A program made the position numbers and the translations under genes. The notes under the pieces were generated by a model. The model ran no database searches, was not told where the DNA came from, and was given only the letters and a program-made list of their open reading frames with translations. A stretch of DNA of 63,518 nt from an uncultured Verrucomicrobiota bacterium (GTDB lineage Bacteria > Verrucomicrobiota > Verrucomicrobiia > Limisphaerales > UBA9464): the NCBI GenBank assembly GCA_903854475.1, contig CAINWP010000040.1:1-63518 (forward strand), read 5' to 3'. The number at the start of each line of letters is the position of its first letter. Position 1 is the stretch's first letter. Of the stretch, positions 22,636 to 55,186 are shown piece after piece.

Positions 22636-23013
22636 TCAGGTGAAGTGCTCCCAAAGTGTCGGACTAGGCGCTGGGGTGCCATAGCTCCGGCGCAATTGGT
22701 GAGATTGCTTAAGCATGACATTGGATTGCTGGCGTTCGGCTTCCAAAGCTACCACGGCCTGTTTGAACTCTGGGCCCATCGCCAACTCCTGTTCAAGAAC
22801 GGCTCTCAGGTGCCGTCGCTGATCGGGGGTCAAACAATGGTTGGGAGGCAGAAGCACTTCGAGATCCCGTTGACACCCAGATTTCCGATCCAAAATCGAC
22901 TCCACTTCGGTCCAATCCCGACGATGAACAGCTTCCTTTAAAAGTTCGTTGAGATCTTCCCAAGATCGCAGGGCGGTCTGGACTTGGTCAGTAGATTCCG
23001 GGACCGCGTCCAT
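22636..23013 (-). CDS. FliT/FlgN-like helical flagellar chaperone (putative)
   Basis: 'EAVHRRDWTEVESILDRK' pattern; directly coupled (TGATG) downstream of fliS. Confidence 0.5.
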   Translation of the reverse strand: MDAVPESTDQVQTALRSWEDLNELLKEAVHRRDWTEVESILDRKSGCQRDLEVLLPPNHCLTPDQRRHLRAVLEQELAMGPEFKQAVVALEAERQQSNVMLKQSHQLRRSYGTPAPSPTLWEHFT

Positions 23014-23486
23014 CAGACACTCATGTTGAAATTGACCCGCTCGGTACCCGTCGCGCTAGCGGGCCGTGTTCCAGGTGATTCGATGACGGAACCAGTGACT
23101 TGAGCGGCCAACATCTCGCGCCATGCTTCTTGGATCACCTTAAGATGTCGTTGAGCCTCCCTTAATGGCTCAGGTTCCTTACGGACATTGCCCTGGATCA
23201 AATGGTCTCCAATGTAGCCATACAAACCGAAGAGTTTACGCGCAAAATCACCACCAACCTCCAGATCCAATGCTACCCGCAACTGGTTCACGATCGCTGC
23301 TGCCTTGGTGATTTGGTTGTGGATCGTCTGCTGGCGTAAACCAAATTCTTCAATCTCAAACCCATCAATGGACCGCTGGATTGCCAGTACTGCTCCATCG
23401 AGCAGCATCTGAACAATACGATGCTTCGAGACGGTGGCCTCCGTGGCCGAACGGTAAGCCGCAAACGCATTACGGGCCTGTGACAT
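23013..23486 (-). CDS. fliS: Flagellin export chaperone FliS
   Basis: 'AYR...IVQMLLDGA', 'LDLEVGGDFARKLFGLYGY' and 'EAWREM'. Confidence 0.92.
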   Translation of the reverse strand: MSQARNAFAAYRSATEATVSKHRIVQMLLDGAVLAIQRSIDGFEIEEFGLRQQTIHNQITKAAAIVNQLRVALDLEVGGDFARKLFGLYGYIGDHLIQGNVRKEPEPLREAQRHLKVIQEAWREMLAAQVTGSVIESPGTRPASATGTERVNFNMSV

Positions 23487-23514
23487 ACGCTCAGTGATTA
23501 GGAATAGTTTGGTA

Positions 23515-23778
23515 CTAGGGTCCGCCGAACAAGGCCACTATACGGTCAACCCCATCTAACGGGGGATATGGACTGTCTGGGCTCGACTTACGAACCATTT
23601 CCTTCACCAACTTGAAATCGCTCTCGGCTCGTTCTTTTGCTTGGAGTATCTCCTCGCGGGTAATCTTTGGCGGTGGCCGCAAAGAGACCGACTCACCCGG
23701 CTCGGGCGGCCGGCCCGTCTTGACCTTGACCTCTGTAGGCAAGGTCGGTTCCTGAGTTTTAATCGCTTCTATTTTCAC
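23515..23778 (-). CDS. Putative anti-sigma-28 factor, FlgM-like
   Basis: 87 aa with low-complexity N-terminus, 'ESVSL' and C-terminal 'YPPLDGVDRIVALF'; GAGGAGG RBS before the GTG start and a sigma-28-type promoter upstream. Confidence 0.5.
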   Translation of the reverse strand: MKIEAIKTQEPTLPTEVKVKTGRPPEPGESVSLRPPPKITREEILQAKERAESDFKLVKEMVRKSSPDSPYPPLDGVDRIVALFGGP

Positions 23779-23798
23779 AGTACCTCCTCAACCATCAA

Positions 23799-23826
23799 AT
23801 TGCGGCAGGATGAGCCTGCACTTAAG
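23799..23826 (-). promoter_or_regulatory. Sigma-28 (FliA)-type promoter of the flgM-like/fliS/fliT-like genes
   Basis: Minus strand cTTAAG-TGCAGGCTCATC-CTGCCGCAAT, i.e. TTAA-N15-GCCGCAAT versus consensus TAAA-N15-GCCGATAA; the same motif recurs at 55161-55186. Confidence 0.7.
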
Positions 23827-23843: not shown

Positions 23844-24602
23844 TCAGGTTTTTTTGGATTGTGTCCCCGATGAACCCTTCTGGATGCCATTGGTGGCACC
23901 CGAAGGCGGAGTGGTGGCGGGCTGAAAATCCCTCTTGAGCAGGCGCACGGACCGCGAAACTCCATATCGGATGAAGCGCAGCGGGCTATCCACCGACAAG
24001 GCGGGCGGTGGATCGGTCTCGACACCTAGGGATTCTCTGAGGTACTTCCGTGCGTCATTCAATGTGGCGGCTTCTCCAGCATTGAACCCGTCATCGAATT
24101 GCCAAAGCACTGCGCCATCATGAACTCGTACGAGGGTCAACTTGATGCCGATGCGCAGCGGTGGGTAAGGTTGGTAGGTTGAGAGGCTGGAAAAGAGGAT
24201 CGCCTCTGCGGAAGTCTGACGCTGGACATCTTGGAGCAACTGGCTCGGGAGAGCTTCGGTCGTCCGCAGTTCTAATGCGCCCTGCAGCCAGCGTCCTTTG
24301 GGTGGCACATAAAACACTACTTCGAACGGGCCATCTTGTCTCAGTTCGGCAATAAGGCTGGCTTGAACCTCGGTGGCCGCCTCGGATTGAGGTGTTCCCA
24401 ACCCGCCTTCAGGCAAAGCGGTCGGCAGAATTGCAACACGGGTGACGGTCTTTAGAACGTCAAAGCCCATCGATGAGTGGTTGAACTGGCTTCGAAACGG
24501 ACCCGTGTAGGAAGGATCGGTGAGTCGCTTGGCAACCGAGCTGCAACCCATGGCCAGACCGAGCGCAACTCCCAGACTGAGGATATGCACTGGCCTAATC
24601 AT
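23844..24602 (-). CDS. Flagellar-locus lipoprotein of unknown function (possible CsgG/FlgO/PelC-like alpha/beta fold)
   Basis: Lipobox 'LAMGC', 'RVAILP' and 'IGIKLTLVRVHDGAVLWQFD'; ATGA overlap with the fliD stop. Confidence 0.7.
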   Translation of the reverse strand: MIRPVHILSLGVALGLAMGCSSVAKRLTDPSYTGPFRSQFNHSSMGFDVLKTVTRVAILPTALPEGGLGTPQSEAATEVQASLIAELRQDGPFEVVFYVPPKGRWLQGALELRTTEALPSQLLQDVQRQTSAEAILFSSLSTYQPYPPLRIGIKLTLVRVHDGAVLWQFDDGFNAGEAATLNDARKYLRESLGVETDPPPALSVDSPLRFIRYGVSRSVRLLKRDFQPATTPPSGATNGIQKGSSGTQSKKT

Positions 24603-26407
24603 GAGGATATTCCGAGTTTCTGGTTGAGAAATTGCATCTGGGAATTGGATTTGGCTTGGGCTGCCTCCATGGCTCGAAATCCAGCCAATAGTCGCTCTCG
24701 GTTGGCTTGGACACGCCGTTCCATGGCAACCAGCTGGTCATCTAGTCGTGCGGATTGTTCGGTCAATCCCTTCTGGCGCTGAGGCAAAGTGCCTGAAATC
24801 TCTTCCACCATCGGCTTCACGAAGGTGGTGATCCGCGCGCTTAGACCGGTCGTCGTCGTCGAGAAGAACTTCTGAACTTCGGATAACTGGCTCGAAAGCG
24901 CTGTATTGAGAGAGGCCGAGTTTGTCGCGCTCAGTTCATTGGTGTAACCCGTCGTGCTATACCCTAAGTCGGCCAGCCCTCGAATGGTTGTGCTAGGCCC
25001 TCCCGACAACTGGAAACTCAACAAGCCACGGAGGCTTGAACCTAGTTGAAAGATCGTCTGATCGTAAGCCAAGACACCGGATGTGATTTTCCCCGCAGCG
25101 TCGCGATTACTGACAGTCAAAGATGAGATCAGCGACTGAACCCGATTCACTGAGTTGACCAGCGCATCAATGGCCGATCGGGCGGCGCTCGTGTCGTTGG
25201 TACTGTTAATTGTTGTTGTCCCCACCTTGGAGGCGGTGATCGTTAAACCCGTGAGCCCTGAATCGGCGGCACTAATGGAGTTAGATCGGGACTTCGATGT
25301 GGCACCACCGTTAACCGAATACACCAAATCAGTACCACTGCTGAGCGTACCCCCTGTCAGGCCAAAAGCTGTCAGAAAATTGCTGCTGCCGCTTTGATCC
25401 AATACAACGCCTCGGTTTCCCGGTTCCTTGTTCTTGAGTACGATGCGGTTGAGCCCGGAATCAAAAGAGGCCTGAACTCCGGCAGCCGAGTCATTAATGC
25501 TGTTGAGCACCGTGGCCAAGGTGCTGCTGGAAGAGTAATCGATTGAAACCCCGTTGACTGAGAAGGCGCCCGTCGTCTCAGTGGTTCCGTAGGTCAGCGG
25601 TGTCATCAAGGGCTGACTCGACAAACTGGAGGAGAGCCGGAGGGATCCCAACTTGGAGTCGCTGACAGCGCTGGAACCGGAAGCTGGAGTAAATAGTTTG
25701 AGACAACTCAAGAGATTGGAGGTGTCCGAGGTAGCTCCGAGGATCAGGTTTTTCCCATCAGGTCGCGCGATGGTGACCTGATCGTTAGTGCTGGAATAGG
25801 TGGCGCTTCCCGTCGTACCGATGGCGGTGTCCAGTTTGACGAGCAAGTCTTTAAGGGTGTCGCTCGTTGCCACGGTTACGGTGGAGTTAGTCACCGCGCC
25901 AGTGCTGCTGTCTTGGACTCCGATGGTCAAAGTGCCGGCCGTCAGTGTGCTCCCCCACCCTGCTGCCGAAAGAACAGGCCCCGTATCGGTGTTGACAGCC
26001 ACCGGCGGAGTTCCGGAGTAGGTGTTAACATCCGCTGTGTGCAGCGGACTAATGATCCCCGACGTGGCTCCCAACCAACTTGCAGGCGTGGCCAGGGTAG
26101 TCACGGTGACAGAATAACTTCCGGTCACCGCCCCTTCAGTCGCACTCACTGAGGCAACGGAAGTGTCCGACGAAGTCACCGATCTACGACTGTAAAGGTT
26201 GGAATCGCCCAGCGCCGTGGCTTTGGTCTGAAGATCGGTCAGTTGCGTTGCGATCTGCCCGAGGGCGGTGCGGCGACTAGCTAAGGTGGCCTGCTCGGTC
26301 CGGACCTTGGTCTGAGGAGTCCGCTCCACAGACGTGAGCTGATCCACCACTGACTTCCAGTCAAAACCGGAGGCCAAACCCGATATGCTCATGTCCAAAC
26401 CAGCCAT
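24599..26407 (-). CDS. fliD: Flagellar filament cap protein FliD
   Basis: N-terminus 'SGLASGFDWKSVVDQL', 'GSYSVTVTTLA' and C-terminal coiled coil 'RLLAGFRAMEAA'; Ser/Thr-rich. Confidence 0.95.
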   Translation of the reverse strand: MAGLDMSISGLASGFDWKSVVDQLTSVERTPQTKVRTEQATLASRRTALGQIATQLTDLQTKATALGDSNLYSRRSVTSSDTSVASVSATEGAVTGSYSVTVTTLATPASWLGATSGIISPLHTADVNTYSGTPPVAVNTDTGPVLSAAGWGSTLTAGTLTIGVQDSSTGAVTNSTVTVATSDTLKDLLVKLDTAIGTTGSATYSSTNDQVTIARPDGKNLILGATSDTSNLLSCLKLFTPASGSSAVSDSKLGSLRLSSSLSSQPLMTPLTYGTTETTGAFSVNGVSIDYSSSSTLATVLNSINDSAAGVQASFDSGLNRIVLKNKEPGNRGVVLDQSGSSNFLTAFGLTGGTLSSGTDLVYSVNGGATSKSRSNSISAADSGLTGLTITASKVGTTTINSTNDTSAARSAIDALVNSVNRVQSLISSLTVSNRDAAGKITSGVLAYDQTIFQLGSSLRGLLSFQLSGGPSTTIRGLADLGYSTTGYTNELSATNSASLNTALSSQLSEVQKFFSTTTTGLSARITTFVKPMVEEISGTLPQRQKGLTEQSARLDDQLVAMERRVQANRERLLAGFRAMEAAQAKSNSQMQFLNQKLGISS

Positions 26408-26416: not shown

Positions 26417-26815
26417 TCAGTAAACGCAGTCGAGTGAGATTCGCTCACCGCACGGGCATTCGACGGTGACTTTTTGGACTAAATCACCCACTCGGGTGAC
26501 CACGATGCCCGGCGCCTTGGGCTCCTGAGTCTCAACAGGAACCACTACTTCGGGAGCGTACAAATTCCTCAATGAAATCGGCCTCGTCTTGGTCAGCATT
26601 CTTGGGGAACGGATGCCGGAAAGGATGGTTTCTATGATCGACTCATCGAGGCCCATTCGCAGGGCGTCCGATAGATCAGCGAGCGCCTTATCCGCTGGAA
26701 CCAACACCGAGGGTTTGGTGTCGACCGGTGGGGTGACGGCTAAAAATTCCGGGAGTGCCGAAGCCAAAGCCGGAGCAAACTCGTAACGAGGAAATGGAAC
26801 AAACCCAGCAGCCAT
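26417..26815 (-). CDS. Hypothetical protein with C-terminal CPCG...C motif
   Basis: 132-aa ORF filling the gap between motB (2 nt) and fliD (9 nt); ends 'VECPCGERISLDCVY'. Confidence 0.7.
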   Translation of the reverse strand: MAAGFVPFPRYEFAPALASALPEFLAVTPPVDTKPSVLVPADKALADLSDALRMGLDESIIETILSGIRSPRMLTKTRPISLRNLYAPEVVVPVETQEPKAPGIVVTRVGDLVQKVTVECPCGERISLDCVY

Positions 26816-26817: not shown

Positions 26818-27549
26818 TTACTCGGTTTTGGCAGGCGTCTTGCCGGCCCTCACTACAATGGCGACCCGCCGGTTGCCTGGGTCGTCACGCAAGCGATCCG
26901 GCAGCGGTTGTTCACTGCCCATTCCTGAAATCTTGCGAATCTGTGAGGACTTCACTCCGAAGGATTGCAGCAATTGGCGGGCCGAGTTAGCTCGGTTGGC
27001 CGACAATTCCCATGGATCGCCTTCTGCCGTACCTGCCTCGCCGGCGGTATGCCCATTCAATTCCAATTCTATCTGAGGATAGCGAGCCAACTCCCAACCC
27101 ACCGTCTCGAATACCAATTGACCATACTCAGTCATGCCCCTGGCCCCGGCTTGAAACAGCGGTTTGCTAGGACTGTCGAAAAAGGTGATCAGCAGACCTT
27201 CACTCGACCGCTCCACTTTTACCGAGCGGGTGTCCTTCCATTCGGGATTCTCCATAACGGCCCGTTCCAAGCGTTCATCCAAGCGTTGCATGTATTCTAA
27301 CGGGACTGCCGATTGATTCTCAAAGAGCTTTGAGCGGTTCTGGGCGCCATCCGATTCAGAGGTCTTCTGAGGCAAAACACCTAAGGAGTTCTTAACCGTA
27401 GACATCATCCGGTTGCGGAAGTAGCTGGCCAGTTCCCCCTTGGTCTTTTCGTCCTGAGCAACGATCCACATGACCATGAAAAAGGCCATCATACCCGTGA
27501 CAAAGTCGGCATAAGCCACTTTCCATGCACCTCCTCCTCCTGCTGCCAT
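26818..27549 (-). CDS. motB: Flagellar stator protein MotB
   Basis: 'GAWKVAYADFVTGMMAFF' and OmpA-like C-terminus 'GHT...WELSANRA...NRRV'. Confidence 0.95.
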   Translation of the reverse strand: MAAGGGGAWKVAYADFVTGMMAFFMVMWIVAQDEKTKGELASYFRNRMMSTVKNSLGVLPQKTSESDGAQNRSKLFENQSAVPLEYMQRLDERLERAVMENPEWKDTRSVKVERSSEGLLITFFDSPSKPLFQAGARGMTEYGQLVFETVGWELARYPQIELELNGHTAGEAGTAEGDPWELSANRANSARQLLQSFGVKSSQIRKISGMGSEQPLPDRLRDDPGNRRVAIVVRAGKTPAKTE

Positions 27550-27574: not shown

Positions 27575-28429
27575 TCACTTCATGGTCTTCAGCATCGTCT
27601 CCAACTCGGAGGATGCCGGGCGAACGTCGTCACTCAGGACGCGGCGACCCACTTCACAGGCCAACAACGGTGCAGCTCCATTGGCGAAGCTCACGGTGGC
27701 CTCCTTAATTACATTCATATACATGGCCTCAGCGCGGCCAATGAAATCGATGTTCGTGGCCAACGGTGCCACGACGCCGTAGGAAGCAAAGATGCCGTAG
27801 AACGTTCCGCACAATGCCGAGCTAATGCTCGCTCCGACGACCGTGGTTCCTTGGTCGATCTTACCCATCGTCAACACAATGCCCAACACCGCGGCCACGA
27901 TACCGAACGCCGGCATTGAGTCGGCCACTTTACCCAGCACTTCAACCGGTTCATGATGCTCAGCATGGGCGGTGACCAGAGATTGCTTCATGAGGGACTC
28001 CAGCTGGTCGGGCTTGATGCGGCCATCCACCACGGGCTTCAGTCCATCGCAAAGAAAGTCCATCGCGTGATGGTTGCTGTAAAACTTAGGGTACTTCTTG
28101 AAGAGGCTACTTCCAGTCGGGTTCATTACGTGTTCTTCCAGGGCGATCATTCCGCCGCGGCGCCCGAGCACGAAGAGTTCATAAAGGCACTTCAGCAATT
28201 CCTCGTAGTGGCCCTTGTTGTAAGGAGCCCCTTTCAGGGTCGCTGTTAGACCGTGGACGATTCCCTTCAGCGTCTTGACCGGGGCCATAATAACCAAGGC
28301 TCCGGCTCCCATCCCGAAGATGGGGATGACCTCTCCAGTATGATACAGTCCGGCAGGGTTGCCACCGTTCATAACGAAGCCAAGACAGGTGAGACCGATA
28401 ATGATGACGAATCCAATGATGACGACCAT
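27575..28429 (-). CDS. motA: Flagellar stator protein MotA
   Basis: 'GMIALEEHV', 'PAFGIVAAVLG', 'GTFYGIFASYG' and 'EVGRR'. Confidence 0.95.
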   Translation of the reverse strand: MVVIIGFVIIIGLTCLGFVMNGGNPAGLYHTGEVIPIFGMGAGALVIMAPVKTLKGIVHGLTATLKGAPYNKGHYEELLKCLYELFVLGRRGGMIALEEHVMNPTGSSLFKKYPKFYSNHHAMDFLCDGLKPVVDGRIKPDQLESLMKQSLVTAHAEHHEPVEVLGKVADSMPAFGIVAAVLGIVLTMGKIDQGTTVVGASISSALCGTFYGIFASYGVVAPLATNIDFIGRAEAMYMNVIKEATVSFANGAAPLLACEVGRRVLSDDVRPASSELETMLKTMK

Positions 28430-28434: not shown

Positions 28435-29235
28435 TTAGATGGGATTGACTCGCTTGATGTAGGCACTCAGGGCCGAGACGGCCTGCACATGAATTTGGCA
28501 GGCTCGGGCTTCGGTGAATCCGAGGATCTCTCCGATATCCTTCAATCGGAGACCCTCGTAATAGAACATGCTTAGAACCTTTTTCTGGACGTCGGGCAGC
28601 ACCTGGATTCGGTCCCGGATCAGTAGGTGCAATTCCCGCTGTACCAGCATTTCAAAGGGGCCCTGTTGATTCAGGTCCGCCAACTCCCGTGACGGTAGCT
28701 CATCGCTCGCCAAGAAGGCAGGTTCCGAGAGACTTTCAAAGATCACTCCGCGCAGCCGGTCGAGCAGTTGTCGATACTCCGGCATGCTAATACCCAGTCG
28801 CGAGGCGATTTGGTCCTCGGAGGGCGGCCCGCCCAGCTCAGTAGTTAGCGTATCGATGGTCTCTTCGAGCGCCTGACGCCGCGCCAAGTCGGAGCGGGAG
28901 AGCGGACTAATGCGGCGCAGTTCATCAAAGATCGCGTTTTTGATGCGGATGCGCGCAAAATGGGGAAAGGAAGCCCCTTTGAGCGGATCATAGGTTCTTC
29001 CGGCCTGCACCAAGGCGAAGAGTCCAAGATTAATCCAATCATCCAGGTCGGTGCCTGCTGGGAGCGCCGGGCAGTACCGTTGAACAGTTCTGACCACCAG
29101 AGGGGCGTATCGGCGCAGCAAATCCTCCTCACCATCCGCCGGCCCTACGGAGTCCCGGTAGCTGTGCAGAGCCCGAACCTTGTGAGTCAAGGAACTCAGT
29201 ACGGTCGGAGCTTCTGTGAACTCAGTGGCTGGCAT
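28435..29235 (-). CDS. fliA: RNA polymerase sigma-28 factor FliA
   Basis: 'YAPLV', 'YDPLKGASFPHFARIRIKNAIFDELR' and region 4 'YYEGLRLKDIGEILGFTEARACQIH'; start taken at ATG 29235. Confidence 0.92.
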   Translation of the reverse strand: MPATEFTEAPTVLSSLTHKVRALHSYRDSVGPADGEEDLLRRYAPLVVRTVQRYCPALPAGTDLDDWINLGLFALVQAGRTYDPLKGASFPHFARIRIKNAIFDELRRISPLSRSDLARRQALEETIDTLTTELGGPPSEDQIASRLGISMPEYRQLLDRLRGVIFESLSEPAFLASDELPSRELADLNQQGPFEMLVQRELHLLIRDRIQVLPDVQKKVLSMFYYEGLRLKDIGEILGFTEARACQIHVQAVSALSAYIKRVNPI

Positions 29236-29479
29236 TACCCCTCGTATTCGTTGGGTTTTCCGCAACCGGCTTCTCGTCACCACTGGTCGTGGCGGAGTCC
29301 GTTTCTTGGCTGGCGCGATAAATAAGTCGGCACCACTGGCGAGAAATGAGCGCCATGACCCCACCCGAGATGGCCGCATGAAAGAGACTATCGACCCAGT
29401 CAACGCCATTGAAGAGAGAGATCGCCAGCAACAGCAGGGCGACTCCCGTTCCGATGGCAGCGCTGACGAGTTGAATCAT
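29222..29479 (-). CDS. Small two-TM membrane protein
   Basis: 85 aa from ATG 29479 with two hydrophobic segments; ATGA overlap with the upstream stop, and its own end overlaps the fliA start. Confidence 0.6.
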   Translation of the reverse strand: MIQLVSAAIGTGVALLLLAISLFNGVDWVDSLFHAAISGGVMALISRQWCRLIYRASQETDSATTSGDEKPVAENPTNTRGNASH

Positions 29480-43781: not shown

Positions 43782-43800
43782 GCCTCTTCCGGAAATTCCC

Positions 43801-47024: not shown

Positions 47025-47055
47025 GCGCTGTCGACATATTTAAGATACGCATCGC

Positions 47056-47325
47056 ATGACACCGGAACTAGCTGTGGACCTCCTCAAGCAACTGGTCGAG
47101 CGGATCTTCATCGTGGCTTCGCCACTGCTGCTGACGGCCATGATCACGGGACTCATCGTGAGTCTCATACAGACGGTCACGTCGCTGCAGGAACAAACCC
47201 TCAGTTTTGTGCCCAAAGCGCTCACTGTCCTAGGAGTCTTGTTGATGATCCTACCGTGGGCGCTCCAAATCGTGATGGACTACACCACCGGCGTCATCGG
47301 CCTCATGGGACGCATCAACCGATAG
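47056..47325 (+). CDS. fliQ: Flagellar export gate FliQ
   Basis: 'QTVTSLQEQTLSFVPK'. Confidence 0.96.
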   Translation: MTPELAVDLLKQLVERIFIVASPLLLTAMITGLIVSLIQTVTSLQEQTLSFVPKALTVLGVLLMILPWALQIVMDYTTGVIGLMGRINR

Positions 47326-47333
47326 GACGCCCA

Positions 47334-48116: not shown

Positions 48117-48126
48117 AAGGCGATCC

Positions 48127-49218: not shown

Positions 49219-51292
49219 TCCCCTCTCACCCCCGGGTCTGTCGATCCGGATGCCGAAGTCCCAATTGGCGGTGGCGTTCTTCGTCTTGGGTTCGTTGCTG
49301 CTGCTCATCCAGCCCATCCCGTCATTCCTGCTCGATGTCCTCATCGTGCTGAGTCTCGGGAGCTCAATCCTCACGTTGATGGTGGTGCTCTTCCTCCGCG
49401 ACCCGGCGGAATTCTCAACGTTTCCCACGCTCCTGCTCATCACCACGTTGTTCCGTCTCGGCCTGAACGTGGCCTCGACTCGGCTCATTTTGAGCACGGG
49501 TGAGGCAGGCCAAATCATCTCGGCCTTCGGCGAACAGGTGGTCGGAGGTAATTATGTCATCGGCGTCATCATCTTCGCGCTGCTGACGGTCATTAATTTC
49601 GTGGTCATCACCAAGGGCGCAGGGCGCATTGCAGAGGTCGCGGCCCGCTTCACACTGGATGCTCTACCCGGCAAACAGATGGCCATCGACCAGGAACTCA
49701 ATTCCGGAGCCATTTCGGAGGTAGCTGCTCGGAACCGGCGACAAATGCTGCAACGCGAGATCGATTTCTATGGAGCCATGGACGGCTCATCGAAGTTCGT
49801 TCGTGGTGACGCCATCGCAGCGATCCTCATCGCGGTCATTAACATCGTGGGTGGGTTTTTAATCGGTGTTTTCCAGCGAAACGAGTCGGCCTTGGAGGTG
49901 TTGAGCCGGTACACAATCCTGTCCATCGGTGACGGTCTTGTCTCTCAGGTGCCGTCCTTGATTTTTTCGACTGCGGCGGCACTTCTCGTGACCCGAGCGG
50001 CGGCCCGGGAAGAACTCGGGACTGCGCTGGGTCAGCAGTTGGTGTTACAACAACGCCCCATCCTTCTCACTGCTGTTGCGATGGGCTTCATGGCCTTGAT
50101 GCCCGGGTTTCCCACGATTCTCTTGTTGTGCACCTCAGCCCTCCTCTTTGCCTTGTGGCGGACATTGCCCGAGCGACCTGCCGTCCCTGTTGGTTCGGAA
50201 TCTGGACCCAATGAAGCGGCGGTCAAAGATGCTCCCAAGGCCGGTCAGGAACCCATTCAGCAACTCCTCTCCGTGGATCCGCTGGAAGTTCAATTGGGAT
50301 TTGGATTGGTCACCTTGGCCGATGTCAGCAAGGGCGGAGATCTTCTGGAAAGGGTCACCGGAGTTCGAAAGAATTTCGCCCAGAGCATGGGCTTCGTAGT
50401 CCCTTCAGTTCGCCTGTGGGACAATCTCCAATTGGACTCGCAGGAGTACCAGATTCTCTTCCGCGGAAACATGGTGGGACGCGGGACATTGCGCCCAGGC
50501 CGCTGGCTCGCGATGAATATTAGTCATAGCGACCAGGTTATCGCCGGCGAGGCTACCACTGAGCCGGTCTTCAATTTGCCTGCCGTCTGGATCGATGAAC
50601 TCCATCGTAGCAGCGCGGAGTTGGCCGGGTACACCGTGGTGGATACGACCTCGGTACTCGTCACACATTTTCAAGAGTGCATCCGCCGGCACGCCCACCA
50701 ATTGCTCAGTCGACAAGATGTCGATGGACTTCTCGACAATCTGAAGAAGACCCAACCTGCCTTGGTCAATGAACTGGTGCCGGCACAACTCAATTTGGGT
50801 CAGATCCAGCGCATCCTCCAGAACTTGCTTATCGAAGGCATTTCGATTCGCAACCTAGTGAGTATTCTGGAGCGGGTGGCCGACAGCTCAACGATGACTA
50901 AGAACATCGACGAATTGTCCGAACAAGCCCGTCGATCCATCGGTCCAGAGTTGGTCAAAGGCTACCTGGATGACCGGGGTAATCTCTCGGCCATCACTTT
51001 GGAAAGTTGGCTCGAAGAAGAGTTGGCCAAAGGACTCCATCCGGGAATGACCGAGAATACGTTGGCTTTAACCCCCATGGCGGCGCAGCACCTCAGTTTC
51101 CATATCGGGAAGGCGATCCAACCCGCTGTGGCCGAAGGGCGCATTCCCCTATTGCTGTGTTCCGGAGTCATCCGCCTTGGGCTCCGCAAGTTCTTCGGAC
51201 CCACCTATCCTGACCTGCGCTTTCTGGCCTACGAAGAATTGCCTCCACGGCTCCGAGTGAACACCGAGTACTCGATCCCCAGTCTGCCTTGA
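49211..51292 (+). CDS. flhA: Flagellar export protein FlhA
   Basis: 'FPTLLL...RLGLNVASTR', 'RIAEVAARFTLDALPGKQMAID' and 'FYGAMDGSSKFVRGD'. Confidence 0.96.
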   Translation: MANPLSPPGLSIRMPKSQLAVAFFVLGSLLLLIQPIPSFLLDVLIVLSLGSSILTLMVVLFLRDPAEFSTFPTLLLITTLFRLGLNVASTRLILSTGEAGQIISAFGEQVVGGNYVIGVIIFALLTVINFVVITKGAGRIAEVAARFTLDALPGKQMAIDQELNSGAISEVAARNRRQMLQREIDFYGAMDGSSKFVRGDAIAAILIAVINIVGGFLIGVFQRNESALEVLSRYTILSIGDGLVSQVPSLIFSTAAALLVTRAAAREELGTALGQQLVLQQRPILLTAVAMGFMALMPGFPTILLLCTSALLFALWRTLPERPAVPVGSESGPNEAAVKDAPKAGQEPIQQLLSVDPLEVQLGFGLVTLADVSKGGDLLERVTGVRKNFAQSMGFVVPSVRLWDNLQLDSQEYQILFRGNMVGRGTLRPGRWLAMNISHSDQVIAGEATTEPVFNLPAVWIDELHRSSAELAGYTVVDTTSVLVTHFQECIRRHAHQLLSRQDVDGLLDNLKKTQPALVNELVPAQLNLGQIQRILQNLLIEGISIRNLVSILERVADSSTMTKNIDELSEQARRSIGPELVKGYLDDRGNLSAITLESWLEEELAKGLHPGMTENTLALTPMAAQHLSFHIGKAIQPAVAEGRIPLLLCSGVIRLGLRKFFGPTYPDLRFLAYEELPPRLRVNTEYSIPSLP

Positions 51293-51301
51293 TTCATCGA
51301 C

Positions 51302-52309
51302 ATGAATCTCCATTCCTCTGATCGATCTGCGATTCCCCAGACAGGCCTGATGCTCTTCAAGGGCCACACGGCCGAAGAAGCCTTGGCCAAGGTGCATCAG
51401 AGTCTTGGATCCTCGGCCATCGTGGTGCAACTCAAGCGTGTCCCATCGGCCGGCGTCGGCAGGATTTGGGGAGCCATGGAGATTGAGGCGTGGGCTCAGG
51501 CCCCTGCCCCACTGACTCCAATCCCAGCGGCAGCGGATGCACCGGTTGCCAGGGTCCGTTCCGCGCCGAAAGAAGCCCGGACGATGGAGCTGCTCAGGAG
51601 TCTAGGTCTCAATGAGGAATCGGCCCGGAGGGTACACCAATCCATTCCTGTCTCGGGTGCGGCATTGACCAACCAAGAGGCCTGTCTTCAGCTCGGTGCT
51701 GCGCTGCTCGCTGCGTGGGACAAAGGCACCACGAGGATTCCAAAAACACCCCATCGGATTGCCCTGATCGGGGCGGCGGGCTCGGGCAAAAGCATTGCCA
51801 CAGCTAAGTGGATTACCATCGAATCCCTTCGCCATCGCCAGGATTGCCGGATCTGGTGCCTTGATGGAATCGTCGCCAATTCGGCGGAATTTTTATCACA
51901 GCACGCCGAACTGCTGGGGATTCCCGTGGAAACCACCTGGAACCCTGGGCTACCGCCGTGTTCTCGAGAATTTTTGGACCTACCCGGTTGGAATCCCACT
52001 GATCCCGATGTCTCCGATCGAATGGCCAACCTGCTTGACCGTTTTGAACCCGACTGCCTGCTACTGACACTCAATGCAGCGTATGAGGCGTCCATCCTTC
52101 AGAATCAGGTGGTGCAGTTCATGCCCTTCCGGCCGCATGGGTTGTTCCTCACGCATTTAGACGAGTGTCAGTCGCCATCCAAAGTCTGGGATCTGGTCCT
52201 CGCGAGCGGTATCGCTGTCTTTGGGACATCAAGCGGTCGATTCATCCCGGGCGGTTTCGACCGAACAGGAGGCGAGGCTTGGATGGAACGATTGTTTGAG
52301 CAGGTTTGA
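51302..52309 (+). CDS. flhF: FlhF-like SRP-family GTPase, divergent
   Basis: N-terminal 'AEEALAKVHQSLGSSAIVV', P-loop 'GAAGSGKS', 'DLPG' and 'THLDE'; follows flhA. Confidence 0.75.
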   Translation: MNLHSSDRSAIPQTGLMLFKGHTAEEALAKVHQSLGSSAIVVQLKRVPSAGVGRIWGAMEIEAWAQAPAPLTPIPAAADAPVARVRSAPKEARTMELLRSLGLNEESARRVHQSIPVSGAALTNQEACLQLGAALLAAWDKGTTRIPKTPHRIALIGAAGSGKSIATAKWITIESLRHRQDCRIWCLDGIVANSAEFLSQHAELLGIPVETTWNPGLPPCSREFLDLPGWNPTDPDVSDRMANLLDRFEPDCLLLTLNAAYEASILQNQVVQFMPFRPHGLFLTHLDECQSPSKVWDLVLASGIAVFGTSSGRFIPGGFDRTGGEAWMERLFEQV

Positions 52310-52362: not shown

Positions 52363-53631
52363 TCAGAAGAGCTTCGCGAGTTCCGCGGCCTTGCTAATGG
52401 AGTTGTTGCAAACGTCATCCAAAGCCTCCCGGGGCACCTGATATCGCTGTCCCACCTTATTGGCAAAGATCTCGTTCCATTCCTCGCCATGAGACGGGTG
52501 AAGAGAACTCACATAGTGGGCCGCATCAGGCCGTGTCTGGGCCACAGCATCGTTGTGATCTTTCATGCAAAGCATCACATCTTCCGGCAATTCCCAGTTC
52601 AATGCGATCAAGGCCCCGACTTCGGCATGATCCCATCCTAGGGTCTCATGCTCCAGCGTGTGGAGGTCCCGCTTTTCTTCGATCGCGGTCGAAAAAATCT
52701 TCATGTAGTCGTCCTTCTTACTGCTGACGATGAGCGGCACACTGAGGTCCTGAAGAAATCCTGCGGTGAAGGACAGATTGGCTTTGGACGGTTGGACGAT
52801 GTCGGCGAGTTCTCGAGCCAGCACCGCACGGCGTGAACTCGCTCGCCAAAAGTCGCCGAGCGCGAACTTGGCATGGGTCTGACTGGGCATCGCCGCCTTC
52901 GAACCGACAATCATGACGATGCGCTCTAAGTCCGCATTTCCCATGAGCATGATGGCGTGATCCAGGGACTGAACCTTGCTCTTCGGAGAGTAAGCGGTGG
53001 AGTTCACCGTGTTCATCACCTTGCCGACCAACTGGGCATCGATCGACATGACCTCCATGATTTTTCCGGGAGTCGTGTCGGGATCTCGGAGCCGGCGCAA
53101 GGTTTCGAAGACGGCCTTCCGGAATCGAGGAACCTCAACATCCCCGAGGAGTTGTCGGAGGCGATTCTGGATGTCGCTCTGTGACCATCCCGCATACGGA
53201 TTGATGATCGCCGGCGCAGTCGGAACGATGAGGCCGGACGCCGTGGTGACGGATCCTGGAACCGCCTTACCGCGGATCAAGGACGGTCGTGGCCGCTCGA
53301 TGACTTGAATGATCGGCCGGCGCGGCGCGACGACGGACCCTTTGCCCCGGCGTCCGCCCTTTCCGGCCGGCACCTTGGGCTTCGCAGCCGGTTTGGGCTG
53401 CGGTGGTGGAACGACCGGCTTTGCCCCTCCGTGCCCATGGGTTGCTTTCCAGATCGACAACGTCGGGTTGGACTCCGCGTTCTGGGCGGCCGCCTTTCGG
53501 CTTATTCCTCCTAAGGCGCTTTGAAGCCACGACCCCAGCGAACGAGCCAACCGAACGGTGCTTCCGGGTTTCTGATCCTGAGAAACCGACGAGGGTGCTG
53601 GTTTGTTGGAAGATCCTTCGCCCGGTTTCAT
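52363..53631 (-). CDS. HDOD-domain protein with disordered Pro/Lys/Arg-rich N-terminus
   Basis: 'DAQLVGKVMNTVNS', 'SLDHAIMLMG', 'FWRAS', 'GFLQDL' and 'LGWDHAEVGALIALNWELP'. Confidence 0.88.
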   Translation of the reverse strand: MKPGEGSSNKPAPSSVSQDQKPGSTVRLARSLGSWLQSALGGISRKAAAQNAESNPTLSIWKATHGHGGAKPVVPPPQPKPAAKPKVPAGKGGRRGKGSVVAPRRPIIQVIERPRPSLIRGKAVPGSVTTASGLIVPTAPAIINPYAGWSQSDIQNRLRQLLGDVEVPRFRKAVFETLRRLRDPDTTPGKIMEVMSIDAQLVGKVMNTVNSTAYSPKSKVQSLDHAIMLMGNADLERIVMIVGSKAAMPSQTHAKFALGDFWRASSRRAVLARELADIVQPSKANLSFTAGFLQDLSVPLIVSSKKDDYMKIFSTAIEEKRDLHTLEHETLGWDHAEVGALIALNWELPEDVMLCMKDHNDAVAQTRPDAAHYVSSLHPSHGEEWNEIFANKVGQRYQVPREALDDVCNNSISKAAELAKLF

Positions 53632-53639
53632 AAGATTTT

Positions 53640-55112
53640 CTATTCGCCGCGGCGGCCCAACTGGTTGCTGAAGATGGTGAGTAATCCACCCAGCCCTACA
53701 TAGCCCACCAGGGTCAGCAGGTTTACGACAAATTGGGCAGGCACGGTCTTAGGGAGGATATCTCCGAATCCGAGGGTCAGTGCCACGACGAAGGAAAAAT
53801 AAATAGTCTCATACCCACTGCGTTGGAAGTCCGACGGGACAAACAGTGCCGGAGTCACTACTCCGAGCGGGGTGGAACTTTGCCAACTCGATTCCTTGCC
53901 CTCGGCCGCCGCCAAATTAGAGGCCGCTAAAAGATTCCCCCCGTCCTGATCCTTCAGTTCCAGGGACGATTGAGTCGACCACAACGCCAACGTGTCGTCT
54001 TTGGGTAGATAGGCCGCGGTGATCGCCTGGTGGGTGGACTCATGAATCTTCTCACAAAGATGATTCAGAGAGTCTTTTTCAGGATCATAGTGAACCACTG
54101 TTCCATTGATGCTCAGCGCCCCCCCTTTGACGGGGGTTGCGAAGCCAGCAGATTTCATCGGAAGATCCGGATCCACCTTAGTGAGACTGTCCGGAAGCAG
54201 TGCGAAAACGACGGCAAAGGCACCGATCAACAGAAAATTGAGCACCACCCATCGGAACAGACTTCGTCCGCAATCGGAGGTGAGCCACCACAGCCAATAA
54301 ACCACCCGAGCCATCTTGCCCTGGTTGCGAAATTCCTCGAGGTAGTTCTCATCCACGATGTGGCGGCGCACTAAATACGCTCCAGTGAAGTCGATGTCCC
54401 GAATGTCCGAACCAATCCAATTGGAGGTCGTGTAGTTCTTCAACCCACGCAATTGGATTGCGTGCAAGTCCGCCTTGCCAAAGTCGGCCTGGCTGACATC
54501 GCATTCACGTAAGTCGCTTCCGGTCAGGTTTGCCTGGTTGAACTCAGTCTCAATTAATCGGCATTCCAAAAGGCGCGCATCTTGAATAGAGGCCAGATGG
54601 ACTCGTGCCTTAGCCCAAGTCGATTTTATAGCGCTGGCACCATCCAAGTTGGCACGGATCAAATTGGCGCCGTCGAAGATTGCTTCGCCAAAACCAGCCC
54701 CCTGCGCTGATGCTTCACTCAAATTGGCACCCCGGAAGGAGGATGCCATAAACTCTCCTCCATCGAGGCATGCCTGGAACAGCGTCGCCTCATCAAACTT
54801 GGCATGAGTCGCTACGACCCCCTTGAAGTTACAGCGACTCAGCTCACTGCCGGTAAAATCGCAACCGGACAGGTCCAGGCCGCTGAAATCTCGCCCCAGA
54901 AAATTCATCCCCGAGAGGCGTTGCAACTCGATCGGAAGAGCCTCTCCGCCCGTCTGCGCCTGACGGTAGCGGATTAGGATTTCATCTTCCCGACTCAACG
55001 TCTCGACGGCCACCGGGGTTTCCGTCTCCAGAGAATCCGGGGTGACAGCAGCCTCCGTCTCAAGAGAGATCGGGTTCTTTAATGGATCGTTTTCGGTCAA
55101 CTCGGTGGACAT
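53640..55112 (-). CDS. Pentapeptide-repeat protein fused to a 2-TM K+-channel-like pore domain with a FliD-like insertion
   Basis: A(N/D)Lxx-type repeats at aa ~65-245; TM1 at aa ~285-306; pore helix and filter 'YFSFVVALTLGFGDILP'; TM2 at aa ~460-482. Confidence 0.88.
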   Translation of the reverse strand: MSTELTENDPLKNPISLETEAAVTPDSLETETPVAVETLSREDEILIRYRQAQTGGEALPIELQRLSGMNFLGRDFSGLDLSGCDFTGSELSRCNFKGVVATHAKFDEATLFQACLDGGEFMASSFRGANLSEASAQGAGFGEAIFDGANLIRANLDGASAIKSTWAKARVHLASIQDARLLECRLIETEFNQANLTGSDLRECDVSQADFGKADLHAIQLRGLKNYTTSNWIGSDIRDIDFTGAYLVRRHIVDENYLEEFRNQGKMARVVYWLWWLTSDCGRSLFRWVVLNFLLIGAFAVVFALLPDSLTKVDPDLPMKSAGFATPVKGGALSINGTVVHYDPEKDSLNHLCEKIHESTHQAITAAYLPKDDTLALWSTQSSLELKDQDGGNLLAASNLAAAEGKESSWQSSTPLGVVTPALFVPSDFQRSGYETIYFSFVVALTLGFGDILPKTVPAQFVVNLLTLVGYVGLGGLLTIFSNQLGRRGE

Positions 55113-55158
55113 GAGATTGGTCTGGAGGAAACAGATCGGTAACAGTCCCCGGAGTAGG

Positions 55159-55186
55159 CATGCGGCAGAATCCCCACCTCCTTAAG
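55159..55186 (-). promoter_or_regulatory. Sigma-28 (FliA)-type promoter of the channel-HDOD operon
   Basis: Minus strand cTTAAG-GAGGTGGGGATT-CTGCCGCATG; boxes and spacing identical to 23801-23826. Confidence 0.7.

What the first reader, a model, noticed from the sequence alone, without database searches (positions are those of the whole stretch)
22636..55186. Candidate undescribed system: a PVC flagellar regulon built with co-opted modules and possibly CheY-independent control
Seen in one locus: a sigma-54 tier containing a triad-less Sel1-protease, a DDE-degenerate IS256 homologue, a Cys-motif protein and a lipoprotein, all tightly coupled to fliA-motAB-fliD; a sigma-28 tier containing flgM-like/fliS/fliT-like and a FliD-capped K+-channel plus HDOD operon; and a FliM without the CheY-binding peptide. 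Inference: motor or assembly control may run through ion flux or membrane potential and pseudo-enzyme scaffolds rather than the classical Che pathway. This is a hypothesis joining separate observations listed individually.
Basis: inference. Interest (0 to 1): 0.8.

Follow-up and report, generated by a model that had tools for sequence, protein, structure and literature searches.

The report
Second, chemotaxis-blind flagellar gene island
This stretch encodes a complete extra set of flagellar motor genes in a freshwater Verrucomicrobium that has no chemotaxis genes, and it carries a fixed set of lineage-specific add-on genes (a dead protease, a dead transposase, small unknown proteins, a potassium channel) whose roles are still untested.

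Summary
Nearly all the gene observations hold. Window 22.6-52.3 kb is an intact flagellar island: a B. subtilis-like flgB-to-flhF operon, and a divergent operon running Sel1/pseudo-protease, dead IS256 transposase, a new 85-aa membrane ORF, fliA, motAB, a Cys-motif protein, fliD, a lipoprotein, an FlgM-like gene, fliS and a FliT-like gene. Two back-to-back sigma-54 promoters conserved across lineages drive them. The genome has a second, canonical flagellar set on other contigs. It has no CheW or MCP domain. The island's FliM lacks the CheY-binding peptide in every lineage seen.

This is best read as a paralogous, CheY-blind flagellar system, like the non-chemotactic lateral or secondary flagella of gamma-proteobacteria. 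Its lineage-specific add-ons are probably periplasmic scaffolds (MotX-like Sel1 protein, PelC/FlgT-fold lipoprotein), plus its own sigma-28/anti-sigma pair.

The dead transposase is strictly island-linked: 7 of 7 island genomes, 0 of 54 others, and always between the Sel1 gene and fliA. The scan had already noted this gene in another genome. The K+ channel-HDOD pair co-occurs with the island and shares a sigma-28-like motif, but "control by ion flux" remains untested speculation.

Verdict: a new variant of a known kind, of moderate interest.

The parts
22636..23013 (-). FliT-like small helical protein (orf125), last gene of the minus-strand operon
   Evidence: 5 of 7 family members give weak Pfam FliT hits, best E 2.6e-4. 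It is conserved after fliS in all loci that reach that far.
23013..23486 (-). fliS (flagellin chaperone)
   Evidence: Pfam FliS, 7.3e-26.
23515..23778 (-). FlgM-like small protein (orf87), candidate anti-sigma-28 factor
   Evidence: No Pfam family in 0 of 10 members. The complex model with FliA scores 0.79 against a best control of 0.00, and contacts sigma regions 2 and 4. dN/dS is 0.06.
23800..23826 (-). sigma-28-like promoter motif CTTAAG-N15-CCGCAA upstream of orf87
   Evidence: Present at the same place in 11 lineages, down to about 45% protein identity; the -35 hexamer CTTAA(G/T) is conserved in all, the -10 part varies.
23844..24602 (-). outer-membrane-type lipoprotein (orf252) with a PelC/TolB-N/LpoB/FlgT-like fold
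   Evidence: Lipobox AMGC. AF2 model pLDDT 66.7, pTM 0.65. Foldseek hits: PelC 1.8e-6, FlgT 8.1e-5, LPHT ring 5.4e-4. A paralogue lies beside fliS of the second system on C57.
24599..26407 (-). fliD (filament cap)
   Evidence: Pfam FliD_N and FliD_C.
26417..26815 (-). Cys-motif protein (orf132), function unknown
   Evidence: C-terminus KVTVECPCGERISLDCVY is invariant in 11 of 12 lineages. No family found. Model is poor, pTM 0.24. dN/dS is 0.11.
26818..27549 (-). motB (stator)
   Evidence: Pfam MotB_plug and OmpA. NCBIfam MotB PRK09041.
27575..28429 (-). motA (stator)
   Evidence: NCBIfam MotA1 TIGR03818, 3.1e-90.
28435..29235 (-). fliA (sigma-28), 266 aa from the corrected start
   Evidence: NCBIfam FliA_WhiG, 3.9e-50. 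The upstream 58 codons carry stops in relatives.
29222..29479 (-). unlisted conserved 85-aa protein with two predicted membrane helices; its ATG overlaps the transposase-homologue stop (ATGA)
   Evidence: Found in 41 of 41 loci with a full IS256-like gene.
29476..30603 (-). IS256-derived protein without the two catalytic Asp (exapted transposase)
   Evidence: Single copy in the genome. dN/dS is 0.10. Only 2 other full-length clusters among 1.84 billion representatives.
30600..32396 (-). exported Sel1-repeat protein with a C-terminal HtrA-like pseudo-protease domain; the likely start is ATG 32396 or 32378, not TTG 32426
   Evidence: Weak MotX hits (1.4e-10; 2.8e-4).
32410..32425 (-). sigma-54 -24/-12 motif TGGCCTGCGAGTTGCT for the Sel1-to-fliT-like operon
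   Evidence: Conserved in G075 as TGGTCTGTGACTTGCT. Present in 32 of 32 loci.
32445..32460 (+). sigma-54 -24/-12 motif TGGCACGACCCATGCT for the flgB operon
   Evidence: Present in 32 of 32 loci.
32472..38967 (+). flgB, flgC, fliE, fliF, fliG, fliH, fliI, fliJ
   Evidence: Pfam hits for each.
38838..39728 (+). FlbB/YlxF-like membrane protein (orf296)
   Evidence: NCBIfam collar_FlbB, weak at 9.6e-4. One membrane helix at residues 39-71. Sits where the B. subtilis operon has ylxF (operon order recalled).
39725..42337 (+). FliK-like Ser/Pro-rich protein (orf870)
   Evidence: No family hit. Assigned by its position between the FlbB-like gene and flgD. The second system has a paralogous slot of 890 aa.
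42156..42170 (+). candidate internal sigma-54 motif GGCACACAATTTGCT about 190 nt upstream of flgD
   Evidence: G075 has GGCACGCCGCATGCT at the same place, although the FliK-like protein is only 31% identical there.
42357..44577 (+). flgD, flgE (short hook protein), fliL
   Evidence: Pfam and NCBIfam.
44574..45500 (+). fliM lacking the N-terminal CheY-binding peptide
   Evidence: The same lack is seen in G075 and G078.
45509..52309 (+). fliN, fliO, fliP, fliQ, fliR, flhB, flhA, flhF
   Evidence: Pfam. FlhF is weak in Pfam; NCBIfam gives 9.1e-13.
52363..53631 (-). HDOD-domain protein, soluble
   Evidence: Pfam HDOD, 3.1e-38. No membrane helix.
53640..55112 (-). pentapeptide-repeat protein fused to a two-helix K+ channel pore (TLGFGD)
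   Evidence: Pfam Pentapeptide and Ion_trans_2. Membrane helices at 284-313 and 460-481.
55160..55186 (-). second copy of the sigma-28-like motif (CTTAAG-N15-CCGCAT) upstream of the channel gene
   Evidence: Conserved in the 6 genus contigs shown: 5 have CCGCAT and 1 has ACGCAT (position). Absent upstream of the channel gene in G075 and G078.

Best explanation
The region is a self-contained, paralogous flagellar gene island that exists beside a canonical flagellar gene set in the same genome.

Shown:
- It encodes the export apparatus, MS ring and C ring, proximal rod, hook, stator, filament cap and chaperones, and its own sigma-28.
- Its two divergent operons carry conserved sigma-54-type promoters.
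- Its FliM has no CheY-binding peptide.
- The genome has no CheA/CheW or MCP.

Inferred:
- The motor runs without switching input from a Che pathway, like the non-chemotactic lateral or secondary flagella of gamma-proteobacteria.
- Expression follows a sigma-54 to sigma-28 cascade. The small orf87 protein acts as the FlgM-type anti-sigma factor.
- The exported Sel1/pseudo-protease protein and the PelC/FlgT-fold lipoprotein are periplasmic scaffold parts around the basal body and stator, working like MotX and FlgT of Vibrio.
- The IS256-derived protein, the 85-aa membrane protein and the Cys-motif protein are fixed lineage-specific components of unknown role. My best guess for the dead transposase is a DNA- or protein-binding regulator of the fliA operon.
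- The K+ channel-HDOD pair is a co-inherited late (sigma-28-type) module whose link to motility is likely but unproven.
For: Gene content.

Second system: a second full set at 30-56% identity lies on contigs C127, C182, C9, C214, C57, C247 and C274.

Not an assembly mix: 10 of 24 genus genomes hold both FliM types.

Chemotaxis genes:
- No CheW or MCP domain in the own genome.
- None of those 10 dual-FliM genomes has CheW.
- In the 61-genome family sample, 6 of 7 island genomes lack CheW.

FliM: the N-terminal peptide is missing in the window and in G075 and G078. The paralogue on C127 has LSQSEVERLL.

Origin: the closest FlhA in a 201-genome phylum sample is the genome's own paralogue at 56%; all others are at or below 51%.

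Regulation:
- Sigma-54 motifs are present on both strands in 32 of 32 loci, and RpoN is present.
- The orf87-FliA complex model scores 0.79 (median of 3 runs) against a best control of 0.00. That mark was reached by 58 of 80 solved complexes and 2 of 110 mismatched pairs. The runs agree in at least 62% of contacts, and partner pLDDT is at least 56. A sigma-28/FlgM complex is solved, so the pass may reflect likeness to it.

Fixed synteny: of 45 loci, Sel1prot lies upstream in 39 of 39 with room and fliA downstream in 40 of 40 with room. The small ORF is present in 41 of 41.

Selection: dN/dS is 0.06-0.13 for all accessory genes, including the dead domains.

Co-occurrence: IS256-like orthologues are in 7 of 7 island genomes and 0 of 54 others. 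The channel and HDOD orthologues are in 7 of 7 plus G012.

Rearrangement test: in G075 the channel-HDOD pair sits at the other end of the island, on the same strand, after the FliT-like gene.

Expression hint: contigs from RNA libraries of two studies, mostly 90-95% alike, cover 23 of 30 and 26 of 30 bins of 22636-42635, including the Sel1 and IS256-like genes.
Against: - No function was measured. The organism is known only as a metagenome-assembled genome.
- The island lacks distal rod, P/L ring, hook-junction and flagellin genes. I did not assign which of the scattered copies serve it.
- The canonical FliM of the second system keeps a CheY-type peptide although CheA/CheW are missing. A 135-aa single receiver-domain protein lies on C247. 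An unrecognised CheY-like input therefore cannot be excluded.
- G078 carries the island together with a CheA-CheW pair.
- The MotX and FlgT resemblances are weak. MotX scores 41 bits against a cut-off of 330. The lipoprotein model has TM-scores of 0.3-0.6 and pLDDT 66.7.
- The sigma-28-like motif departs from the classical consensus and is not enriched genome-wide.
- RNA-library contigs can contain DNA and come from relatives.
- The sampled genomes are kin: about two clades carry the island, so the co-occurrence counts overstate independence.
Confidence: 0.7

Rival explanations
1. The island is an undescribed control system in which motor or assembly control runs through K+ flux or membrane potential (channel plus HDOD protein) and through pseudo-enzyme scaffolds, in place of the Che pathway.
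For: - There are no Che genes, and FliM lacks the CheY peptide.
- The channel-HDOD pair is restricted to the same narrow lineage. It is in 8 of 61 family genomes, 7 of which carry the island, and in 0 of 200 other phylum genomes at E<=1e-15.
- The pair stays next to the island in two different arrangements.
- It shares the CTTAAG-N15-CCGCA motif with the orf87-fliS unit.
- HDOD proteins have a precedent in motility and biofilm control: SadB (passages of PMC12075610).
Against: - No evidence links the channel to the motor.
- Both MotA/MotB pairs score best with ordinary MotA1/MotB models.
- G012 keeps the pair without the island.
- The motif is absent upstream of the channel gene in G075 and G078 and is at chance frequency genome-wide.
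- The pseudo-enzymes have simpler structural readings.
Confidence: 0.12
2. The K+ channel-HDOD pair, and possibly other add-ons, are passengers. They would be neighbours co-inherited with the island by descent or transfer, with no role in motility.
For: - Co-occurrence rests on about two related clades.
- The pair occurs without the island in G012.
- In the window it is convergent with flhF and divergent from a NarL-type two-component pair.
Against: - The pair has kept its adjacency to the island through a rearrangement.
- It shares the promoter-like motif.
- For the operon-internal genes (Sel1, IS256-like, small ORF, orf132, orf252), overlapping stops and starts and 39/39 and 40/40 synteny make a passenger role unlikely.
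Confidence: 0.3
3. Assembly artefact: the two flagellar sets come from two organisms binned into one genome.
For: The genome is a 340-contig bin with 3.2% estimated contamination.
Against: - 10 of 24 genomes of the genus, from separate bins, carry both FliM types.
- The island's left flank (DsrE-like gene, orf116) is the same in many independent contigs.
- The nearest relative of the island's FlhA is the same genome's paralogue.
Confidence: 0.03
4. The island is a decaying, non-functional relic.
For: - FliM and FliA score below their family cut-offs.
- Two of its genes are dead enzymes.
Against: - All genes are intact across lineages that have diverged to about 50% identity.
- dN/dS is 0.02-0.13.
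- In G075 and G078 it appears to be the only flagellar set.
- RNA-library contigs cover it.
Confidence: 0.05

Closest known systems
Secondary or lateral flagellar systems of gamma-proteobacteria (Vibrio, Aeromonas, Shewanella putrefaciens CN-32)
   Same: - A second complete flagellar gene set sits beside a primary one.
- The second motor does not respond to chemotaxis and has a diverged C ring. Passages of PMC8042155 state that lateral motors are non-chemotactic and cite Bubendorfer 2014.
- That the Shewanella secondary FliM lacks the CheY-binding peptide is recalled, not read here.
   Different: - Different phylum.
- Here the whole genome lacks CheA, CheW and MCP, so neither system has a Che input.
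- In G075 and G078 the island seems to be the only set.
- It carries add-on genes not known from those systems.
Bacillus subtilis fla/che operon (gene order recalled)
   Same: The order flgB flgC fliE fliF fliG fliH fliI fliJ ylxF fliK flgD flgE fliL fliM fliN/Y fliO fliP fliQ fliR flhB flhA flhF matches the plus-strand operon.
   Different: - No cheY between fliN and fliO.
- No flhG, and no che genes after flhF.
- sigma-28 lies in the divergent operon, together with motAB and fliD.
Vibrio T-ring protein MotX and H-ring protein FlgT
   Same: - An exported Sel1-repeat protein is encoded with the stator genes. It gives weak MotX hits (1.4e-10, PDB 9yed, 2.8e-4).
- The lipoprotein's predicted fold matches FlgT 3w1e and the LPHT ring 8z5n, among other ring-forming lipoproteins.
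   Different: - Scores are far below family cut-offs.
- The Sel1 protein is 608 aa and carries an HtrA-like pseudo-protease domain.
- No MotY was found in the island.
- The stator scores as ordinary MotA1/MotB.
IS256-family (Mutator superfamily) DDE transposases
   Same: The homology is recognisable over about 250 residues, and the third catalytic residue (E) and its flanking motif are kept.
   Different: - Both catalytic Asp are replaced, and there is a 7-residue deletion at the CQxH motif.
- It is single copy, at a fixed place in an operon, and under purifying selection.
- The family is tiny.
- Eukaryotic FHY3/FAR1, derived from Mutator-like transposases, is the nearest analogy (recalled).
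Sigma-28/FlgM pair and sigma-54-headed flagellar hierarchies (Vibrio, Pseudomonas, Campylobacter, Caulobacter; recalled)
   Same: - Sigma-54-type promoters lie in front of the early operons, including fliA.
- A small protein is predicted to clamp sigma regions 2 and 4.
- A sigma-28-like motif precedes that protein's own gene.
   Different: - No enhancer-binding activator is encoded in the island.
- orf87 matches no FlgM model.
- The promoter motif differs from TAAA-N15-GCCGATAA.
SadB of Pseudomonas (YbaK-like plus HDOD domains)
   Same: It is an HDOD-domain protein tied to the switch between motility and attachment (passages).
   Different: - The window protein has a 160-residue low-complexity N-terminus instead of a YbaK-like domain.
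- It is paired with a K+ channel.

Membership tests
Bacterial flagellum (core gene set) | Export gate FlhA, FlhB, FliP, FliQ, FliR; ATPase complex FliH/I/J; MS ring FliF; C ring FliG/M/N; proximal rod; hook; stator MotA/B | tested here: met
   Pfam and NCBIfam hits for every one.
Bacterial flagellum (core gene set) | Distal rod, P/L rings, hook-filament junction and flagellin encoded for this system | tested here: inconclusive
   These genes are not in the island. The genome holds 5 flagellin and 2 FlgL-like matches and two FlgG-like loci on other contigs. I did not assign them to either system.
Dual (primary plus secondary) flagellar systems | Two complete, divergent flagellar gene sets in one genome | tested here: met
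   Paralogues at 30-56% identity for 25 of the 37 island and flanking reading frames queried. Both FliM types occur in 10 of 24 genus genomes.
FliM (switch protein able to take CheY-P) | FliM middle domain plus FliN-like C-terminal domain | tested here: met
   Pfam FliM 1.7e-16 and FliMN_C 8.6e-15.
FliM (switch protein able to take CheY-P) | N-terminal LSQxEIDxLL-type CheY-binding peptide (motif recalled) | tested here: not met
   Absent in the window, G075 and G078. Present in the C127 paralogue as LSQSEVERLL.
Che chemotaxis pathway | CheW-domain proteins (CheA, CheW) and MCP signalling domain in the genome | tested here: not met
   0 matches for PF01584 and PF00015 in the 97%-complete genome. 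The control genomes ring.
IS256 transposase | DDE catalytic triad | tested here: not met
   D1 is L/H and D2 is R/K; E is kept. This holds in three lineages.
IS256 transposase | Score over the family cut-off; multiple mobile copies | tested here: not met
   56 bits against 150. No second copy in the genome. Fixed position in 39/39 and 40/40 loci.
HtrA/S1C serine protease | His-Asp-Ser triad | tested here: not met
   Asp is Gly in 32/32 and Ser is V/R/L in 32/32.
MotX (Vibrio T ring) | NCBIfam equivalog score; exported Sel1-repeat protein associated with the stator | tested here: inconclusive
   41 bits against a cut-off of 330. It does have a signal-like N-terminus and Sel1 repeats and shares an operon with motAB. 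Generic Sel1 proteins score higher.
FlgM (anti-sigma-28) | Family model match | tested here: not met
   0 of 10 members match PF04316 at E<=5. No NCBIfam hit.
FlgM (anti-sigma-28) | Binds sigma-28 across regions 2 and 4 | tested here: inconclusive
   The model supports binding but does not show it: score 0.79, best control 0.00, with 58 of 80 solved and 2 of 110 mismatched pairs reaching the mark.
K+ channel (two-helix pore type) | Pore helix with a TxGxGD selectivity filter between two membrane helices | tested here: met
   Ion_trans_2, 2.3e-7. TLGFGD is in the sequence. Helices at 284-313 and 460-481.
Sigma-54 promoter | GG-N10-GC elements (TGGCAC-N5-TTGCW, recalled) conserved upstream of the operons; RpoN in the genome | tested here: met
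   Transcription starts were not measured.
Sigma-28 promoter | TAAA-N15-GCCGATAA-type element (recalled) upstream of late genes | tested here: inconclusive
   No hit at 10 or more of 12 positions at the expected sites. A variant, CTTAAG-N15-CCGCA(A/T), is conserved upstream of orf87 and of the channel gene, but is not enriched genome-wide.

The most novel reading that the evidence does not exclude
The island would be an autonomous, chemotaxis-free motility module with its own control logic. In this reading an exapted IS256 transposase, together with the 85-aa membrane protein encoded between it and fliA, acts as the island's dedicated regulator of the sigma-54 to sigma-28 cascade. A sigma-28-driven K+ channel-HDOD pair would feed membrane potential or K+ status back onto motor output. 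That would make it a sensory-motor route that replaces CheA-CheY.
Probability: 0.1. Interest if true: 0.8.

Novelty: new variant of a known kind. Interest (0 to 1): 0.5.

Why it matters
- It extends dual, CheY-blind flagellar systems from gamma- and alpha-proteobacteria to abundant freshwater Verrucomicrobiota, in genomes that have no chemotaxis pathway at all. That raises the question of what undirected swimming is for in these plankton.
- It gives a clean bacterial case of a transposase turned into a fixed host gene inside a flagellar operon.
- It supplies a short list of conserved unknown proteins that are good candidates for new motor or regulatory parts: the Sel1/pseudo-protease protein, the PelC-fold lipoprotein, the Cys-motif protein, the 85-aa membrane protein and the K+ channel-HDOD pair.

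Tried and rejected
- Classical sigma-28 consensus scan (TAAA-N14-16-GCCGATAA, at least 10 of 12 positions): no hit at the expected sites.
- Upstream regions of the five flagellin genes showed no clear shared motif by eye.
- Genome-wide scan for the CTTAAG-N15-CCGxA motif: 8 hits against about 10 expected. The other six hits precede no flagellar gene.
- Protein atlas look-ups for orf252 and orf132 returned only unnamed Verrucomicrobiota clusters, plus one LpoB lead at 0.94.
- The AF2 model of orf132 was too poor to search with.
- A metagenome scan with the third-lineage protein P0002 found nothing. The repeat with an alignment found 33 loci, all of the two known lineages, so the context of the P0002 lineage stays unknown.
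- Searching the records behind metagenome loci for the channel gene was not possible because they are not held.
- A single-domain CheY was sought among 27 receiver domains. Only a NarL-type 135-aa receiver on C247 turned up.
- RNA-library contigs are from relatives and can hold DNA. Parts without cover (fliK-like region, bins 39311-41978) mean nothing.
- Literature searches for an IS256-derived gene in flagellar operons (75 papers hold 2 or more of the 3 terms, and the 10 listed are unrelated by title) and for flagella in Verrucomicrobia found no description.
- The search on Aquifex gave no usable passage. That Aquifex is flagellated without che genes is recalled only.

Full report
**What is there.** The window is a whole 63.5-kb contig (C40) of a 340-contig, 97%-complete genome. 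Earlier notes and the record titles of related contigs place it among freshwater Verrucomicrobiota/Verrucomicrobiales.

Pfam and NCBIfam scans show two divergent gene blocks:
- The plus strand from 32472 to 52309 carries flgB flgC fliE fliF fliG fliH fliI fliJ, an FlbB/YlxF-like membrane protein, a FliK-like Ser/Pro-rich protein, flgD flgE fliL fliM fliN fliO fliP fliQ fliR flhB flhA flhF. This is the order of the B. subtilis fla/che operon (recalled), without cheY and without the che genes.
- The minus strand from about 32396 to 22636 carries the Sel1/Trypsin_2 protein, the IS256 homologue, fliA, motA, motB, a 132-aa Cys-motif protein, fliD, a 252-aa lipoprotein, an 87-aa protein, fliS and a 125-aa protein.
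- An HDOD protein (52363-53631) and a pentapeptide-repeat/K+ channel fusion (53640-55112) follow flhF convergently. They are divergent from a NarL-type two-component pair.

**Checks of the individual observations.**
- *Protease domain.* Aligned to HTRA2, it keeps the His but has Gly at the Asp position and Val at the Ser position. Among 32 distinct orthologues the Asp position is Gly in 32 and the Ser position is V, R or L in 32.
- *IS256 homologue.* It aligns with real IS256 transposases of related genomes. The first catalytic Asp is L or H, the second is R or K, the Glu is kept, and seven residues of the CQxH motif are deleted. This holds in three lineages down to 43% identity.
- *Cys-motif protein.* It has an almost invariant C-terminus, KVTVECPCGERISLDCVY.
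- *FliM.* It starts directly with the middle domain. The paralogue on contig C127 begins with GDVLSQSEVERLL.
- *Corrections.* The long fliA reading frame is not real over its first 58 codons, which carry stops in relatives. The space is filled by a conserved 85-aa reading frame with two hydrophobic helices. Its ATG overlaps the stop of the IS256 homologue, and it is present in 41 of 41 loci. I found no FliD likeness in the channel protein.

**Two flagellar systems and no Che pathway.** A tblastn of the island's proteins against the genome finds a second set at 30-56% identity on contigs C127, C182, C9, C214, C57, C247 and C274. This is not a binning artefact: 10 of 24 genomes of the genus hold both FliM types.

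The genome has no CheW domain and no MCP signalling domain. None of the 10 dual-system genomes has CheW, whereas five other members of the genus do, one of them (G011) with a single weak match.

In a 61-genome sample of the family, the island-type FliM (at least 62% identity) occurs in 7 genomes of two genera. Six of these lack CheW. The seventh, G078, has a CheA-CheW pair that its genus also carries in genomes without FliM. G075 and G078 seem to have only the island-type FliF.

The island's FlhA is closest to the genome's own paralogue (56%). Other Verrucomicrobiota in a 201-genome sample reach at most 51%. The two sets therefore look like old paralogues within this lineage rather than a recent import from another phylum.

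**Regulation.** The 93-bp divergent region holds two sigma-54-type -24/-12 elements, TGGCACGACCCATGCT towards flgB and TGGCCTGCGAGTTGCT towards the Sel1 gene. Both are conserved in G075, whose proteins are only 50-70% identical. Both are found in 32 of 32 loci that include the region. The relaxed pattern occurs only 8 times in the whole window on both strands. RpoN is present. A third candidate lies about 190 nt upstream of flgD and is also kept in G075.

Upstream of orf87, a CTTAA(G/T) hexamer followed after about 15 nt by a CCG-rich element (CCGCAA in the window) is present in all 11 lineages compared. G012 has a one-mismatch version. In G075 and G078 the channel gene has no such motif but lies downstream of the FliT-like gene on the same strand. 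That would allow read-through from the orf87 promoter; this is an inference. The motif departs from the classical sigma-28 consensus and is not enriched genome-wide, so it remains a hypothesis.

orf87 matches no FlgM model. Even so, a complex model places its conserved C-terminal half across regions 2 and 4 of FliA. The score is 0.79 (median of three runs) against a best control of 0.00. That mark was reached by 58 of 80 solved complexes and 2 of 110 mismatched pairs. The runs agree in at least 62% of contacts, and partner pLDDT is at least 56. Because a sigma-28/FlgM complex is solved, the pass may show likeness only. The 125-aa protein is weakly FliT-like in 5 of 7 members.

**The add-on genes.** In 45 loci from genomes and metagenomes, the IS256 homologue is preceded by the Sel1 gene in 39 of 39 cases with room and followed by fliA in 40 of 40. 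Its orthologues occur in exactly the 7 island genomes of the family sample and in none of the other 54.

Among 1.84 billion representative proteins only two other full-length clusters exist (54% and 43% identity). Everything else is an ordinary transposase at about 25%. dN/dS against a relative at 87% identity is 0.10. For the pseudo-protease domain it is 0.08, and for the other add-ons it is 0.06-0.13. The scan had already noted the same dead transposase in another genome (e1-3969595); my tests agree.

The Sel1 part gives weak hits to Vibrio MotX. The lipoprotein's model (pLDDT 66.7, pTM 0.65) matches PelC, the TolB N-domain, LpoB, FlgT and the Vibrio LPHT ring. It also has a paralogue next to fliS of the second system. 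I therefore read these two as periplasmic scaffold parts. This reading is by analogy and was not tested. The roles of the dead transposase, the 85-aa membrane protein and the Cys-motif protein are unknown.

**The channel-HDOD pair.** Orthologues (at least 63% identity) occur in the 7 island genomes plus G012, which has only the canonical flagellar set. They occur in none of 200 other genomes of the phylum at E<=1e-15. In the genus the pair follows flhF. In G075 it lies at the other end of the island. This is good evidence of co-inheritance and some evidence of shared regulation, but it is no evidence of a role in motor control. Both stator pairs score as ordinary MotA1/MotB.

**Expression.** Contigs from two metatranscriptome libraries of different studies cover 23 and 26 of 30 bins of 22636-42635, including the Sel1 and IS256-like genes. 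Most are 90-95% alike (58 of 79 and 94 of 125 laid). Such contigs can contain DNA and show neither level nor strand.

**Comparison and verdict.** Non-chemotactic secondary or lateral flagella with diverged C rings are known in gamma-proteobacteria (passages of PMC8042155). Sigma-54 to sigma-28 cascades, MotX/FlgT-type scaffolds and FlgM are also known.

Four things are new here:
- the phylum;
- the complete lack of a Che pathway beside two flagellar sets;
- the fixed set of lineage-specific genes, above all the exapted transposase and the unlisted small membrane protein;
- the co-inherited K+ channel-HDOD pair.

I found no paper describing these (searches; listings and the cited passages only; supplements not seen). 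Its mechanism, control by ion flux and pseudo-enzymes, is not supported by any test here and stays a low-probability but interesting reading.

Noticed in passing
window 29222-29479 (-): An unlisted, conserved 85-97-aa reading frame with two hydrophobic helices and a charged tail lies between the IS256 homologue and fliA. It overlaps both neighbours.
   Followed up: partly
window 28435-29409 (-): The 324-aa fliA frame is over-long. Relatives have stop codons in the first 58 codons, so the real start is at 29235 (266 aa).
   Followed up: yes
window 39725-42337 (+): The FliK-like protein contains an almost exact internal duplication of about 40 residues (GGKSGLLTATGSNLQPIIPVESGSQNGGGIQREARS...), seen in the translation. 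Its length and sequence vary greatly between relatives (38-68% identity).
   Followed up: no
G000 contig C127 18137-19162: The canonical FliM of the second system keeps a CheY-type peptide (LSQSEVERLL) although the genome has no CheA, CheW or MCP. What binds there is open.
   Followed up: partly
G000 contig C247 34179-39372: About 6-10 kb from an FlgG-like gene (27786-28565) of one flagellar set lie a receiver/sigma-54 activator, a histidine kinase, a 135-aa lone receiver domain and a receiver/HD-GYP protein. These are candidates for non-Che control.
   Followed up: no
G000 contig C57 (L083 3383-14095): A 3570-aa reading frame sits between fliD and the lipoprotein paralogue of the second flagellar system.
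   Followed up: no
G000 contig C218 (L084 1658-5041): A 355-aa protein made of seven Sel1 repeats is divergently adjacent to a 471-aa flagellin gene.
   Followed up: no
G012 contig C158 (L028): A genus member without the island keeps the K+ channel-HDOD pair (about 60-69% identity), with a one-mismatch CTTAAG-N15-CAGCAA element upstream.
   Followed up: partly
window 43801-44577 (+): FliL has an unusually long His/Gly/Ala/Lys-rich stretch of about 90 residues between its membrane helix and the FliL domain.
   Followed up: no
G075 contig C3 about 10580-11580 (L026): An FGE-sulfatase-like gene (identified by eye from the translation) lies between the FliT-like gene and the K+ channel gene. The same gene end precedes the channel in G078.
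   Followed up: no
G000 contig C182 28670-28804: A second, partial RpoN DNA-binding-domain match lies at a contig end, about 7 kb from the fliOPQR-flhB genes of the second system.
   Followed up: no
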